From: a virus
Taxonomy: Duplodnaviria > Caudoviricetes
Length of the DNA stretch: 64,000 nt
IMG/VR virus record: IMGVR_UViG_3300024283_000010
Span: 1 to 64,000 of that record
Direction: 5' to 3' (one strand)
Part shown: positions 3,001 to 29,513 of the stretch, in pieces
Numbering within the stretch: position 1 is the first letter of the stretch
How the letters are laid out: each line of letters begins with the position of its first letter
The notes under the pieces: generated by a model
The model's database searches: none
Told to the model about the DNA's origin: nothing
Seen by the model: only the letters and a program-made list of their open reading frames with translations
Translations under genes and position numbers: made by a program

Positions 3001-4115
3001 CTGCATTTTTCAGGGGATGGAAATTCGCCTACGGTAACGAAGGTAATTATCAACGCGCCCTTGAAGAACTTAAAAACAGTCCTAATTATTTGATTGCTCA
3101 ACGTTCGGGATTAAAAAATAATCCTGATAGGGTAAATACAGAAGAATATCAAAAGAGCCAACATTTTTTAGGCAAACTTGGTATGGCAGGGGAGAAAGGA
3201 TTTAATGCCATTAAAGTATTAAGACAAGATTTATTTGACTATCATTTTAACAAACTTTCACCCGCTGAAAGAGATGACCCAAATGTAGCTAAAAGTGTAG
3301 CACATTTAGTTAACCTTGCTACAGGCGCTACTAATGTAAAAATACCTGCTTGGGTGAATGAAGCATCATTTGCAGGAGGTATGGAGGCGGCAAGATGGGA
3401 AAAGCTCACTGCAAGCCCAGTAAAGGCTACCCAAACTACATTAAACACTATATTTAATCCATCAAAAGCAACTGCATCTGATAGGGTATTTGCTAAAATA
3501 TGGGCGCGTAGGGTGGGCGAGCAACTAGCCACTTATAGTGCTTTATTATTGGCTAATTCAGCTATTCAAAATAACGTTAATCCAAAAAACCCTGTTAACT
3601 ATACTAACCCCGACAAGCCGGATTTCATGAAGTTTAAGTTTGGTGATGTGACGATTGACCCTACGTCCGGCATGCGAGGTGCGGCTATGTTTATGAGAAC
3701 AATTGGTAAGATACCGTTTGAAAGTAAACAAGAACTACACGGAGATAAGAGAATAGCGGTTGCAGGAAAGCAAATAGCGGGTTATGCAAGGGGAAAATTA
3801 GCACCGCTATATGGGACAGCCGCAGACTTTTTTTCAGGAACAGATTTTAGTGGTAATGTTTTGCCATATAGCAATGATAAACCAAGTGGACACGCTCACA
3901 AGCTAACGTGGGGAGAATATGCTTGGAATAAAGCACCATTGCCCGTAGCAGAAGCAGCAAGTGTGGCTTATAAATCAGCAATAGAACACGGAGCGCATAA
4001 AATGACATTGGATAACGTAATTAATGGTATTATGTCGGGCGCTATTTCAGGCACTACAGGGTTCAGGGTAGGGGAATATGATGCTAACGCACCGGAGAAT
4101 AAAAAGAAACGGTAA
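3..4115 (+). CDS. Large acidic/helical virion-associated protein (DNA ejection/internal core type), 5'-truncated
   Basis: Frame is open from position 3 ([12 protein letters not shown]...), so it begins upstream of the window; >1349 aa, Ala/Glu/Lys-rich, precedes fibre-like genes; internal 59-aa duplication. Confidence 0.55.
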
Positions 4116-15851: not shown

Positions 15852-15874
15852 AAAAAGCCCCAATTAAGGGGCTT
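15850..15874 (-). terminator. Intrinsic terminator closing the leftward RAMP/array operon (probably bidirectional)
   Basis: AAGCCCC-AATTAA-GGGGCTT hairpin; A-run at 15850-15856 gives the U-tract on the minus strand. Confidence 0.75.
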
Positions 15875-15880
15875 AATTCT

Positions 15881-16238
15881 TTACCACACCAAGCCCAACC
15901 TGACCTAAAATTATATATGCCAAACCGGGTAACATATTACCTTACCGGAAGCCACCATAATTTACCTATGACCATATCAGACCCCACCACATCGTACCAA
16001 ACCACTGACCTCATCCCGCTTCATCAAATATTATCTAACCGCATCTTAATTCACCAAACCTCTGACCAAATCCTGCCTCAACGCGCCTAACCATATCTGA
16101 CCGCATTATACCTAACCGCTGACCCTGCCACTCCATATACGAACATACCCAACCATAAACGACCAGTCCTTGCCACCGACCCTATCGCATCAGACCATTC
16201 CAATACTTACCCCATCAGAACTTGCCCTACCTCTGACC
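15881..16238 (-). ncRNA. Non-coding GGY-NN pentamer array in 57-nt units (VIPR-type guide RNA array candidate)
   Basis: Minus strand parses as GGTC(A/G)GN head + 10 pentamers; heads at 16238, 16181, 16124, 16067, 16010 (exact 57-nt spacing), then 15973 and 15905; no ORF of 60 aa or more in the track; starts right after a stop codon and ends at a terminator. Confidence 0.8.
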
Positions 16239-16682
16239 CTACTTTCTACTTGATGAAAAGACTTGTTGCAAGTTACTTAATCTGGCAATCAAATCATTAT
16301 TTTTGCCTACTTGTTCAGTAGGAATAGCATTGGTTCTGACATTCAGCATAATATTACGTGCTGTTTTCAATTCCTTTTTAATAGCATCAATAGCTGAATT
16401 AAACCCAAATTGCACTTGATCTTTTGGTGGCAATAAAGTATAACCATCGCCACGAATATTCCTTAGATAGTACATTTCTTTTTCAAGTAATTCATTTCGT
16501 AAATTATCAACCATCTGCATGTACTTGAATTGAATGTTTTGATAGTCTTCGACGTATTTCGCTGTGTTATTATAATTACGTATCTGAGGGAATTTTATAT
16601 TAAAAATATCTCTCAGATAGTCGTGAGTGATGAGCTGTCCCGGCTCAAATTCACTCACTATTTTTGCAATAATTTCATCCAT
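16239..16682 (-). CDS. wHTH-like accessory protein between the RAMP-like gene and the array
   Basis: 147 aa; 'YLRNIRGDGYTL' wing-like motif followed by long helices; 2 nt from the upstream gene. Confidence 0.55.
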   Translation of the reverse strand: MDEIIAKIVSEFEPGQLITHDYLRDIFNIKFPQIRNYNNTAKYVEDYQNIQFKYMQMVDNLRNELLEKEMYYLRNIRGDGYTLLPPKDQVQFGFNSAIDAIKKELKTARNIMLNVRTNAIPTEQVGKNNDLIARLSNLQQVFSSSRK

Positions 16683-16684
16683 GA

Positions 16685-17251
16685 TTAAACTTTTTCTACC
16701 GTGAATCTACCATAACGTGGCCTGTAGTCGCAGACACCAATATACATTCCGGCATTCTTTACAATTGTGTCTACTTCGGTTTCATTCAGTTTGGCTTCAT
16801 CCAAAAATATAGTGCATGTAAATTCCCATGAATGAAAAATAGGACGACACCTCATCGTTTTTGCCTGACCAACTTTTACAGTTCTCATATCGCAATAACC
16901 GGGAACATCGAATAACTTAGGTGGTGGTACTTTTGAATGCTTAAACTCAAATATGGCATCGTCCGGTACGATTGCAGCTTGTTTCCATAATACCCCTTGT
17001 TTAAACTGTTTGGCAGACGCTAAAAACGTAGCATCAAGAACACTGGATGGCATAATGTATATCCCATCTTCATAATAACAAGACGCCTCAAATTCACAAC
17101 GGGCGATAGCCTCTTGATCTTCATCTGTTTTCTGTCTCTTTTTAGTGAGTTCCTTTAATCTTTTAGTAAAAGGATGTAACGGATTAGCGGTTTTGTCGCT
17201 GTGCATCAATAATGGGGCTGTGCCCTTGATACGATAACTTAAAGTTTTCAT
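16685..17251 (-). CDS. Stand-alone RAMP/Cas7-like protein (Vipr-like candidate)
   Basis: 188 aa; N-terminal strand 'YRIKGTAPLLMH', central 'DMRTVKV....MRCRPIF..W', C-terminal Gly-rich loop 'AGMYIGVCDYRPRYGRF'; linked to the GGY-NN array. Confidence 0.7.
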   Translation of the reverse strand: MKTLSYRIKGTAPLLMHSDKTANPLHPFTKRLKELTKKRQKTDEDQEAIARCEFEASCYYEDGIYIMPSSVLDATFLASAKQFKQGVLWKQAAIVPDDAIFEFKHSKVPPPKLFDVPGYCDMRTVKVGQAKTMRCRPIFHSWEFTCTIFLDEAKLNETEVDTIVKNAGMYIGVCDYRPRYGRFTVEKV

Positions 17252-28634: not shown

Positions 28635-29513
28635 CTACACATCAATGCCTGTAATGTCTTTAAATATATCCTTGTCGAAGTTTGGAAGTTTCTGGAATGA
28701 CTCTTTAGCTGCATCGCTCCAATTATTCCAAGCATTTTGAAACGCTTCTTTATATGGTAAATTTTTTATATAACCACCAGTCGTAACGTAGTATGGGTAC
28801 ATTACCTTTTCTTCATCTGACATTTTATAATCAGGAATAAAAATAGTAGTATCTATTTGTGATAAATACTTATAAGCATCTGAATTAATAAAATCTTCAT
28901 AAGTCCAATCAGAAGGCTTATTAAATAGCATGTAATTTGGTGTAACCAAATTATTAAAAGCCCCGGCGTTGTCGTTCCCGGCGTTGCTGTACCCGGCGTT
29001 TCTGTTCCCGGCGTTGTAGTTCCCGGCGTTGTAGTTCCCGGCGTTGCTGTACCCGGCGTTTCTGTTCCCGGCGTTGTCGTTCCCGGCGTTGCTGTACCCG
29101 GCGTTGTCGTTCCCGGCGTTGCTGTACCCGGCGTTTCTGTTCCCGGCGTTGTCGTTCCCGGCGTTGTAGTTCCCGGCGTTTCGAATGCCTGAATTACCTT
29201 TTCCTAAATTGCATAATTCAAGAACTTCAAGCCATGATAATTCTCTTATTAATTCTATGGCATTGGTGCAAGATTTATTATCTTGCGTTACTGGCGTCCC
29301 GTGATCTATAATTTCAAACACCCGATTTGAGGTATTAAAATCATAATAACTGAAACAGTCAACGCATTCTACACAGTAATGAAATCCTGAATTGCAAGGC
29401 GAAACAACGCCAGTGTGTTTAAATATTTTATTAAGTTCATATTGGTACGAACGACATTGCATGTTAGAATCGGTTACCTTGTAACCTTTAATTTGTACTT
29501 TTTCTTTTTTCAT
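28635..29513 (-). CDS. Phage pentapeptide-repeat protein
   Basis: N-terminal 'GYK..D.NMQCR.YQYE..K......PC..GFHYC' domain, 15 x NAGxx repeats, C-terminal 'LPNFD..IF..ITGI'; ATG 29513 preferred. Confidence 0.75.
   Translation of the reverse strand: MKKEKVQIKGYKVTDSNMQCRSYQYELNKIFKHTGVVSPCNSGFHYCVECVDCFSYYDFNTSNRVFEIIDHGTPVTQDNKSCTNAIELIRELSWLEVLELCNLGKGNSGIRNAGNYNAGNDNAGNRNAGYSNAGNDNAGYSNAGNDNAGNRNAGYSNAGNYNAGNYNAGNRNAGYSNAGNDNAGAFNNLVTPNYMLFNKPSDWTYEDFINSDAYKYLSQIDTTIFIPDYKMSDEEKVMYPYYVTTGGYIKNLPYKEAFQNAWNNWSDAAKESFQKLPNFDKDIFKDITGIDV
28956..29180 (-). repeat. 15 x 15-nt coding tandem repeat (AAC GCC GGG NNN NNN)
   Basis: Identical 9-nt core in every unit; encodes NAGNY/NAGND/NAGNR/NAGYS/NAGAF. 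Confidence 0.95.

What the first reader, a model, noticed from the sequence alone, without database searches (positions are those of the whole stretch)
15881..16238. Higher-order 57-nt units in the pentamer array: each unit may be a separate 10-dinucleotide guide
Seen on the minus strand: a head GGTC(A/G)GN recurs every 57 nt four times, each followed by exactly 10 pentamers. U1: GGTAG GGCAA GTTCT GATGG GGTAA GTATT GGAAT GGTCT GATGC GATAG. U2: GGCAA GGACT GGTCG TTTAT GGTTG GGTAT GTTCG TATAT GGAGT GGCAG. U3: GGTTA GGTAT AATGC GGTCA GATAT GGTTA GGCGC GTTGA GGCAG GATTT. U4: GGTTT GGTGA ATTAA GATGC GGTTA GATAA TATTT GATGA AGCGG GATGA. A 37-nt unit (four pentamers fewer), a 68-nt unit and a final perfect GGY run follow. 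In U1-U4, position 1 is G in 34/40 pentamers, position 3 is a pyrimidine in 36/40, and strict GGY occurs in 18/40; positions 4-5 vary freely. Inference: the head is a processing or phasing signal and the NN strings are the address (U1 AG-AA-CT-GG-AA-TT-AT-CT-GC-AG; U3 TA-AT-GC-CA-AT-TA-GC-GA-AG-TT; U4 TT-GA-AA-GC-TA-AA-TT-GA-GG-GA). If one target base is skipped after each NN, the skip could fall on codon wobble positions (U1 would read like R/S-K/N-L-G-K/N-L/F-I/M-L-A-R/S), which would resist synonymous escape.
Basis: partly seen in the sequence, partly recalled or inferred. Interest (0 to 1): 0.85.

Follow-up and report, generated by a model that had tools for sequence, protein, structure and literature searches.

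The report
Phage VIPR guide-RNA array, compact format
The 57-base periodicity is real: it is the guide-RNA array of a phage VIPR system, a CRISPR-related gene silencer first described in 2026, written in a compact form where a 5-base GGTCA mark separates the guides, so this is a new example of a known kind.

Summary
Observation confirmed. On the minus strand, GGTC(A/G)GN heads sit at 16238, 16181, 16124, 16067 and 16010.

It is the vrRNA array of a VIPR system (bioRxiv 10.64898/2026.04.26.720920). The upstream 188-aa gene matches the solved SUSP1 Vipr protein over its full length (E 7e-35). The 147-aa gene belongs to the family that sits next to vipr in Felixounavirus and Medea1 phages.

The same GGTCA+GN punctuation occurs in at least nine related loci. 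27 of 30 head-to-head distances there equal 7+5n.

Under the published one-base-skip rule:
- Unit 2 matches a conserved IS1-family transposase motif perfectly and in frame, in viral contigs and in Sphingobacteriales genomes.
- A guide shared by relatives matches a small phage gene in the same way.
- Both matches stop at the flanking GGTCA, but they include the last two head bases. Each 57-nt unit therefore carries 11 dinucleotides, not 10.
- Units 1, 3 and 4 gave no target above chance.

Processing at the heads is untested, because no RNA data were available. This scan has found VIPR arrays before on other DNA.

The parts
16685..17251 (-). vipr gene (188 aa), the RAMP/Cas7-like protein that binds one pentamer per protomer
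   Evidence: phmmer hit to PDB 36pp_D 'SUSP1 Vipr protein', E 6.7e-35, residues 1-186 against 1-188. PHROG phrog_4652, E 9e-55. H17, K33, R39, K82, the thumb Arg and the G-loop D-x-R are conserved; W178 is Y here (alignment).
16239..16682 (-). vap-like accessory gene (147 aa)
   Evidence: phrog_5926. This is the same family as the gene directly after vipr in Felixounavirus wV8, Pseudomonas phage Medea1, L169 and L170.
16182..16238 (-). Guide unit 1: GGTCA, then GA, then 10 pentamers (57 nt)
   Evidence: No exact 1-nt-skip match in IMG/VR or in the metagenome contigs. Three hits at 20/22 in an outer-membrane receptor gene; these are a lead only.
16125..16181 (-). Guide unit 2: GGTCG, then GT, then 10 pentamers (57 nt). 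The only unit with a credible natural target
   Evidence: 22/22 informative bases match IS1-family transposase genes, antisense and in frame, in L189, L191 and L198. Three more genomes match at 21/22. At skips of 0, 2 and 3 the best score is only 14-15 of 22.
16068..16124 (-). Guide unit 3: GGTCA, then GC, then 10 pentamers (57 nt)
   Evidence: 0 IMG/VR hits. One exact metagenome hit in a Wzz/GNVR gene. Hits at 19-20/22 in SAVED-domain ORFs. None of these can be told from chance.
16011..16067 (-). Guide unit 4: GGTCA, then GA, then 10 pentamers (57 nt)
   Evidence: 0 IMG/VR hits. 3 unrelated hits against 2 control hits in 391 genomes.
15974..16010 (-). Short unit 5: GGTCA, then GT, then 6 pentamers (37 nt)
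   Evidence: It is below the published range of 9-16 repeats, so its status is uncertain.
15876..15973 (-). 3' end of the array: a 68-nt unit with a variant head (GGTCATA), a last GGTCAGG and a short GGY run leading into the terminator
   Evidence: No family of structured tail was recognised (Rfam).
15855..15874 (-). Intrinsic terminator of the vipr-vap-array transcription unit (bidirectional hairpin)
   Evidence: a 7-bp stem with 5 G-C pairs, followed by a T run on the minus strand.

Best explanation
The stretch is the guide-RNA (vrRNA) array of a phage VIPR system. It is transcribed on the minus strand with vipr (16685-17251) and a vap-like gene (16239-16682), and it ends at the terminator at 15874-15855.

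Shown by homology and comparison:
- The protein is a Vipr.
- The RNA has the GGY/NN pentamer grammar.
- A constant GGTCA followed by G+N precedes every guide in this clade.

Inferred from the published mechanism: Vipr protomers bind one pentamer each, hide the GGY and present the NN. The NN pair with DNA, skipping every third target base, and transcription of the target is silenced.

Supported here by target matches: each stretch between two GGTCA marks is an independent guide. Its address starts with the two bases right after GGTCA and runs to the last pentamer before the next GGTCA. That is 11 dinucleotides and a 32-nt footprint for the 57-nt units. Unit 2 is aimed at the conserved LTMRM[Q/H]MRR[L/F]T codons of IS1-family transposases.

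Inferred and not tested: GGTCA plus the 2-nt shift in pentamer register interrupts the Vipr filament. This either marks a cleavage site or simply separates neighbouring filaments on one transcript. It would replace the roughly 40-nt structured 3' tail of the characterised SUSP1-type vrRNAs.
For: - Protein: full-length match to the solved SUSP1 Vipr protein. GGY/NN arrays lie on the same strand next to nearly all of about 160 Vipr homologues fetched.
- Architecture: the GGTCA+GN punctuation is found in L001, L166, L167, L168, L005, L007, L085, L087 and L169, giving 40 heads. 27 of 30 spacings equal 7+5n. A head precedes the first guide right after the stop codon, and in L001, L007 and L167 none follows the last guide.
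- NN versus scaffold: NN identity between units is at chance level while the scaffold is conserved. In guides that are homologous between relatives the NN are better conserved than the GGY (mismatch rates 0.12-0.13 against 0.19-0.30).
- Unit 2: 3 exact IMG/VR hits in 2 sequence versions, in an IS1-family transposase gene (Pfam DDE_Tnp_IS1). In 401 Sphingobacteriales genomes there were 11 hits against 4 control hits. Five of the 11 are the same motif, at 20, 19, 19, 19 and 18 of 20. The targets differ from one another mostly at the skipped bases. Only a skip of 1 works.
- Relatives' guide B: 18 exact IMG/VR hits in 2 versions, in frame on the last codons of a 57-aa phage protein (phrog_12550). 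With GN included the scores are 23/24, 23/24 and 28/30, against shuffle maxima of 17-21.
- Unit borders: the CA of GGTCA does not match in any target, and neighbouring units do not match next to the unit-2 site.
- No self-target in the phage's own genome.
Against: - No RNA evidence at all. Transcription, unit-length RNAs and binding by Vipr are all inferred.
- Only 18 of 40 pentamers are strict GGY, so some units may be decayed or weakly bound.
- Units 1, 3 and 4 have no target above chance.
- By my own estimate, a 20-base gapped pattern has roughly 0.1 expected chance hits in IMG/VR. The unit-2 match rests on that estimate, on the extra GT match (1 in 16), on the frame and on the motif. It is one event, not many, because all the hits are homologues.
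- The claim that GN pairs rests on three independent cases.
- The host is unknown. The Sphingobacteriales link is only by the nearest genomic Vipr homologue, in Mucilaginibacter at 63% identity.
Confidence: 0.78

Rival explanations
1. Same VIPR array, but it is never cut. The whole 360-nt RNA stays in one piece and carries several Vipr filaments side by side. GGTCA plus the 2-nt register shift acts only as a hinge that phases them.
For: No ribozyme, hairpin or known RNase motif lies at the heads (Rfam). In L085 and L087 several GGTCA-separated units share a single structured tail at the end of the array. The preprint confirmed the ribozyme-separated arrays and the single-vrRNA systems by small-RNA sequencing, but not its tail-less 'staggered' arrays.
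Against: In every tested VIPR system the vrRNAs are discrete RNAs of about 100 nt. A head sits directly after the stop codon of the upstream gene, which would fit separation of the array from the mRNA. Neither point is decisive.
Confidence: 0.15
2. A partly decayed array. The locus is a VIPR system, but most units have drifted and no longer guide anything. The regular 57-nt spacing would be a relic of duplication.
For: Strict GGY in only 45% of pentamers, against roughly 75% in L001. Three of the four full-size units have no target above chance. Unit 5 has only 6 pentamers.
Against: Heads and pentamer register are intact through five units. NN identity between units is at chance (0.18-0.23), so the units are not recent duplicates. 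In the relatives' guide B, pentamers with degenerate scaffolds still carry NN that match the target. The array is 100% identical in two other samples. Unit 2 is a perfect 22/22 match. Failure to find targets is expected when the host and its mobile elements are not in the databases.
Confidence: 0.12
3. Not a guide at all. On this reading the RNA is a periodic binding site or sponge for a ring-shaped or helical RNA-binding protein (TRAP-like, one G-rich triplet per subunit), or the DNA is a set of iterons.
For: This was my first idea, from 11 G-starting triplets per 57 nt at 5-nt spacing.
Against: The adjacent protein is a Vipr, not a TRAP-like protein. The variable dinucleotides spell in-frame matches to genes elsewhere only at a skip of 1. 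In homologous guides the NN are the conserved part.
Confidence: 0.02

Closest known systems
Type II VIPR system of Escherichia phage SUSP1 (Vipr, vap1, four vrRNAs; bioRxiv 10.64898/2026.04.26.720920; structures in 10.64898/2026.04.26.720927; PDB 36pp)
   Same: Homologous Vipr protein. The same accessory-gene family follows vipr in a Felixounavirus of SUSP1's genus. GGY/NN pentamers, about 10 repeats per guide. One-base skip falling on codon position 3. Encoded by a phage. The target is the mobility enzyme of another mobile element (there a satellite recombinase, 10.64898/2026.10.15.759431; here an IS1-family transposase).
   Different: SUSP1 vrRNAs are about 100 nt, and each ends in an invariant 3' tail of about 40 nt with a pseudoknot that caps the filament. 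Here guides follow each other every 57 nt with only GGTCA between them, and no tail per guide. The scaffold is much more degenerate here (GAT is common). W178 is Y, and the residues of the pyrimidine pocket (E71, M72) differ.
'Staggered vrRNA arrays' mentioned in the VIPR preprint (fig. S18)
   Same: [quoted passage not shown] This is probably the same class of architecture.
   Different: Only the figure legend could be read. It speaks of a 1-nt overlap and gives no sequence. The preprint names ribozyme arrays and single-vrRNA systems, but not staggered arrays, as confirmed by small-RNA sequencing. The GGTCA mark, the 7+5n rule and the pairing of the two bases after GGTCA do not appear in the text of the three papers I could read.
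Class 1 CRISPR crRNA on a Cas7 backbone
   Same: A RAMP protein polymerises on the guide and breaks the guide-target duplex at fixed intervals. A short constant handle flanks the variable part.
   Different: No CRISPR repeats, no other cas genes and no adaptation module. The period is 5 nt with only 2 paired bases, against 6 nt with 5 paired. The guides are hard-wired in the phage genome.

Membership tests
VIPR system | A Vipr protein (minimal RAMP homologue) | tested here: met
   Full-length phmmer match to PDB 36pp_D 'SUSP1 Vipr protein', E 6.7e-35. 37% identity to Felixounavirus homologues.
VIPR system | Residues that read the GGY motif and clamp the DNA (SUSP1 H17, R138, D177, W178, R179, K33, R39, K82) | tested here: met
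   From the alignment: H17, K33, R39, K82, the thumb Arg and the G-loop Asp and Arg are conserved. W178 is Tyr (still aromatic). E71, M72 and K88 are not conserved. The fold itself was not predicted.
VIPR system | A vap accessory gene next to vipr | tested here: met
   The 147-aa gene is phrog_5926, as are the genes after vipr in wV8, Medea1, L169 and L170. BLASTP against wV8 gp095 gives E 6e-9. The closest relatives L001, L166, L167 and L168 lack this gene.
VIPR system | vrRNA of 9-16 tandem GGY/NN pentamers, with conserved GGY and hypervariable NN | tested here: met
   10 pentamers per unit. Position 1 is G in 34/40, position 3 is Y in 36/40, strict GGY in 18/40. Column identity is 0.73, 0.43 and 0.60 for the scaffold against 0.23 and 0.18 for NN. 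The scaffold is more degenerate than in published examples.
VIPR system | Targets follow the 1-nt-skip rule, typically with the skip on codon position 3 | tested here: met
   Met for unit 2: 22/22 on IS1-family transposase genes, in frame, and only at a skip of 1. Units 1, 3 and 4: nothing above chance.
VIPR system | No self-targeting of the source genome | tested here: met
   The best 1-nt-skip score of any unit in the 75.9-kb genome is at the level of shuffled guides.
VIPR system | vrRNAs are expressed as discrete small RNAs and co-purify with Vipr | not testable with these tools
VIPR type II, SUSP1 clade architecture | Each vrRNA ends in an invariant structured 3' tail of about 40 nt (pseudoknot) | tested here: not met
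   Only 7 nt separate the runs of pentamers. There is no Rfam match. wV8 and Medea1 do show long tails. So the gene content is type II-like, but the array architecture is different.
CRISPR-Cas class 1 | Array of long direct repeats with unique spacers, plus further cas genes | tested here: not met
   The tandem-repeat search finds only the short-period signal here. The neighbouring genes are phage genes of unknown function and tail proteins.

The most novel reading that the evidence does not exclude
GGUCA-punctuated, tail-less arrays are a distinct, self-phasing vrRNA format. In it, a 5-nt mark plus a 2-nt register shift is enough to delimit Vipr filaments, with no structured cap, ribozyme or tRNA mimic. 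This phage would also use the format against host genes, not only against rival mobile elements such as IS1-family transposases. The near-matches of unit 1 (an outer-membrane TonB-dependent-type receptor) and unit 3 (a SAVED-domain CBASS-type effector, or a Wzz capsule gene) would then be real host-takeover or anti-defence guides.
Probability: 0.15. Interest if true: 0.7.

Novelty: new member of a known kind. Interest (0 to 1): 0.42.

Why it matters
VIPR was described only in 2026, and only the SUSP1 and P. fulva type II systems have been characterised in depth. This locus, its relatives and the Vipr homologues found in Mucilaginibacter, Bacteroides and Parabacteroides genomes point to phages of Bacteroidota, although the host of this phage is unknown.

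Together they give a sequence-level description of a much more compact array grammar: 57 nt per guide instead of about 100. The unit borders are defined by target matches, not only by eye.

If the GGTCA mark really suffices to separate guides, it is a simple design rule for multiplexed synthetic vrRNA arrays.

The unit-2 match, together with an unrelated Armatimonadota array that also hits the same transposase family, suggests that IS1-family transposases are a natural target class. That class is not mentioned in the three papers I could read.

None of this changes the known mechanism.

Tried and rejected
1. TRAP-like ring or sponge RNA. This was my first reading from 11 triplets per 57 nt. 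I dropped it once the protein proved to be a Vipr.
2. Known RNA families and ribozymes at the heads. Rfam at E up to 10 gave nothing relevant. The CTGATG strings inside units 1 and 5 do not form a hammerhead by that search.
3. Nucleotide similarity to known phages: none.
5. Targets of units 1-6 in about 0.9 Mb of fetched loci and in the phage's own genome at skips 0-3: nothing above shuffled guides, apart from the trivial self-match at skip 3.
6. Exact 1-nt-skip scans:
   - unit 1: 0 hits in IMG/VR and 0 in the metagenome contigs
   - unit 3: 0 in IMG/VR
   - unit 4: 0 in IMG/VR
   - relatives' guide A: 0 in IMG/VR
7. Unit 1 against the proviruses hit by guide B: 0 hits. The other guides of the relatives do not hit those proviruses either.
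8. Unit 3. One exact metagenome hit in a Wzz/GNVR gene, where I estimate about 1 chance hit. In-frame hits at 19-20/22 in SAVED-domain ORFs, but overall 10 hits against about 21 control hits. I rejected both as evidence and keep them as leads.
9. Unit 1: three homologous hits at 20/22 in an outer-membrane receptor gene, against 0 control hits, where I estimate about 0.5 chance hits. Lead only.
10. Unit 4: 3 unrelated hits against 2 control hits, which is chance level.
11. Among 339 other guides from the fetched loci, only one (in L116) also hits the IS1 genes.
12. Skips of 0, 2 and 3 were not scanned in the large collections, only locally.

Full report
**What is there.** On the minus strand, the 358 nt between the stop codon of a 147-aa gene (16239) and an intrinsic terminator (15874-15855) contain no ORF of note. 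The sequence shows a strong 5-nt period and a stronger 57-nt period. Autocorrelation is 0.38 at lag 5 and 0.48 at lag 57, against a shuffle null of 0.29 (z 3.9 and 7.3).

GGTC[AG]GN occurs at 16238, 16181, 16124, 16067 and 16010. Each of the four 57-nt units holds exactly ten pentamers. A 37-nt unit, a 68-nt unit with the variant head GGTCATA, and a last GGTCAGG with a short GGY run follow. Between units, the head and pentamer positions 1-3 are conserved (0.81; 0.73, 0.43, 0.60). Positions 4-5 are at chance level (0.23, 0.18).

**What it is.** Pfam is silent on the two upstream genes. PHROGs places them in phrog_4652 and phrog_5926, both of unknown function. Homologues of the 188-aa protein lie in Felixounaviruses, Pseudomonas phage Medea1 and many other phages. 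Downstream of the same two-gene cassette in wV8 and Medea1 there are runs of GGTNN.

A note from this scan on the same stretch used the word VIPR, and that led me to three 2026 preprints. VIPR systems consist of Vipr (a minimal RAMP protein), a vap accessory gene, and vrRNAs made of 9-16 GGY/NN pentamers. One Vipr protomer binds each pentamer and hides the GGY. The NN pair with DNA while every third target base is skipped. The skipped base usually falls on the wobble position. Known targets are satellites and rival prophages.

The 188-aa protein matches the solved SUSP1 Vipr protein (PDB 36pp) over its whole length, E 6.7e-35. The residues that read G1 and G2 and clamp the DNA are conserved (H17, the thumb Arg, the G-loop Asp and Arg, K33, R39, K82). 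W178 is Tyr here, and the residues of the pyrimidine pocket (E71, M72) differ. The 147-aa protein is in the same family as the gene that follows vipr in wV8 and Medea1. The genome is a 75.9-kb virus record with a single such array.

**What is particular here.** Characterised type II vrRNAs are about 100 nt, and each carries a structured 3' tail of about 40 nt. wV8 and Medea1 show such tails. In the window, only 7 nt separate the runs of pentamers.

I fetched about 160 Vipr loci and parsed their arrays. The same GGTCA+G+N punctuation occurs in the closest relatives (L001, L166, L167, L168; 76-81% Vipr identity). It also occurs in L169, L005, L007, and in MAGs labelled Bacteroides and Parabacteroides (L085, L087). 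That gives 40 heads in all. 27 of 30 head-to-head distances equal 7+5n (57, 62, 67, 72, 77, 87 nt).

The 57-nt period of the window is therefore only the consequence of four guides of equal length, not a higher-order structural period. A head precedes every guide, including the first one directly after the stop codon. In L001, L007 and L167 no head follows the last guide. The pentamer right after a head is almost always strict GGY, and conformity falls off further into the unit. Two other samples carry the same phage with a 100% identical array.

**Are the units separate guides?** Two guides (A and B) are shared by L001, L166, L167 and L168. In those homologous guides the NN are better conserved than the scaffold: mismatch rates are 0.12-0.13 for NN against 0.19-0.30 for GGY, over 149 pentamer pairs. 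The caveat is that the pairs were picked by NN identity.

The 1-nt-skip pattern of guide B has 18 exact hits in IMG/VR, in two sequence versions that differ at five of nine skipped bases. All lie in frame on the last codons of a 57-aa phage protein, phrog_12550. The longer L167 version extends the match upstream in the same register.

For the window, unit 2 has three exact IMG/VR hits in two versions. They are antisense and in frame on the motif LTMRM[Q/H]MRR[L/F]T of an IS1-family transposase, Pfam DDE_Tnp_IS1.

I then searched 401 genomes of the order that holds the nearest genomic Vipr homologue, a Mucilaginibacter. The pattern gave 11 hits at up to 2 mismatches, against 4 for the reversed control. 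Five of the 11 are this same motif, at 20, 19, 19, 19 and 18 of 20. The targets agree at the NN positions (0.90-1.00) but much less at the skipped positions (0.30-0.60 between distant copies). On these genes, skip 1 gives 22/22, while skips 0, 2 and 3 give 14-15. Shuffled guides reach at most 18.

An unrelated array in an Armatimonadota MAG (L116) has a 17-NN guide that matches the same transposase family at another motif. It is in frame and scores 27/34, against 20.0 ± 0.9 for 3000 shuffles with a maximum of 24. That adds some independent weight to IS1-family transposases as a VIPR target class.

**Where the guide begins and ends.** In both target families, the dinucleotide opposite the CA of GGTCA does not match. 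The two bases after GGTCA do match:
- GT for unit 2, in all seven IS1 copies.
- GA for guide B of L001 and L168.
- GT for the differently placed start of the L167 version.

Including these two bases raises the guide B scores to 23/24, 23/24 and 28/30. Neighbouring units find nothing next to the unit-2 site. The address therefore runs from the two bases after one GGTCA to the last pentamer before the next GGTCA. That is 11 dinucleotides for a 57-nt unit, not 10. This rests on three independent cases, roughly 1 in 16 each by chance. The G is invariant, so it could also be a base read by the protein.

**What is weak.** I have no RNA data. Transcription, processing at the heads and loading on Vipr are all inferred. 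By my own estimate, a 20-base gapped pattern has about 0.1 chance hits in IMG/VR. All unit-2 hits are homologues, so they count as one event, strengthened by the extra GT, the reading frame and the L116 result.

Units 1, 3 and 4 gave nothing I can tell from chance:
- Unit 1: three homologous in-frame hits at 20/22 in an outer-membrane receptor gene.
- Unit 3: one exact metagenome hit in a Wzz/GNVR gene, and in-frame hits at 19-20/22 in SAVED-domain ORFs. Overall there were fewer hits than for the control pattern.
- Unit 4: unrelated hits only.

An earlier case in this scan had its target claims cut back on later checking, so I keep these as leads only. The low GGY conformity (45%) leaves room for partial decay of the array.

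**Comparison and novelty.** By its proteins this is a type II-like VIPR. By its array it differs from the characterised SUSP1 clade, and it probably belongs to the 'staggered arrays' that the preprint mentions in one sentence and one figure legend. The preprint names other architectures, but not that one, as confirmed by small-RNA sequencing. The GGTCA mark, the 7+5n rule, the pairing of the two bases after the mark, and transposases as targets are absent from the text I could read of the three papers. I could not see the figures or data tables.

This scan has already found several VIPR arrays on other DNA, including variant grammars and tRNA-like separators. I therefore file this as a new member of a known kind, with a compact array format that deserves an RNA-end mapping experiment.

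Noticed in passing
L116:100-184 (Armatimonadota MAG) against L189:6380-6429: A 17-dinucleotide guide of an unrelated VIPR array matches the DDE-motif region (ADEIWGFIGKK) of the same IS1-family transposase that window unit 2 hits. It is in frame and scores 27/34 at skip 1, against 19-21 at other skips. 3000 shuffles reached at most 24.
   Followed up: partly
L188:12392-12565 (-), L186:848-1018 (+); guides at L001:3846-3907, L167:955-1031, L168:3150-3211: A guide shared by four relatives of this phage targets the last codons (DGTPFKGVRKEK) of a 57-aa protein of unknown function (phrog_12550). The protein is carried by a family of proviruses of about 60 kb. None of the other guides of those arrays hits these proviruses.
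   Followed up: partly
L084:3680-3735, L085:3324-3412, L086:3150-3220 and 3300-3370, L087:3400-3450, L116:185-236: VIPR arrays linked to Bacteroidales (and the L116 array) end in, or are punctuated by, tails with a tRNA T-arm-like GGTTCGAnTCC. ARAGORN even calls a tRNA-Tyr at L085:3324-3412. In L085 and L087 several GGTCA-separated guides share one such tail.
   Followed up: partly
L223:1501-1532, L224 and L225 (Sphingobacteriales genomes): Window unit 1 matches 20/22, in frame, on DKNLGNLKLAS in a conserved outer-membrane TonB-dependent-type receptor (OMP_b-brl_3, CarboxypepD_reg, Plug). There were 3 hits against 0 control hits. I estimate about 0.5 chance hits, and the three hits are homologues of one another.
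   Followed up: partly
L214-L216 and L218 (about position 1501); L204:818-846: Window unit 3 matches 19-20/22, in frame, on SYIAHIYADS in SAVED-domain (CBASS effector-like) ORFs of four Sphingobacteriales genomes. It also matches 21/22 in a Wzz/GNVR capsule gene of a metagenome contig. These are two unrelated families, and the totals are below the control pattern, so this is probably chance.
   Followed up: partly
L001:3561-3583, L166:2225-2244, L167:757, L168:3082: The closest relatives (76-81% Vipr identity) have no vap gene. In them the array starts right after vipr.
   Followed up: no
L084:3547-3680, L170:3561-3745: A Bacteroidales MAG and the Mucilaginibacter genome use a different short separator (G GACAG A) between runs of nearly perfect GGC/GGT pentamers.
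   Followed up: no
window 28962-29182: A tandem repeat with 15-nt and 45-nt periods (14.6 copies, 81-88% matches), unrelated to the VIPR locus. Not examined.
   Followed up: no
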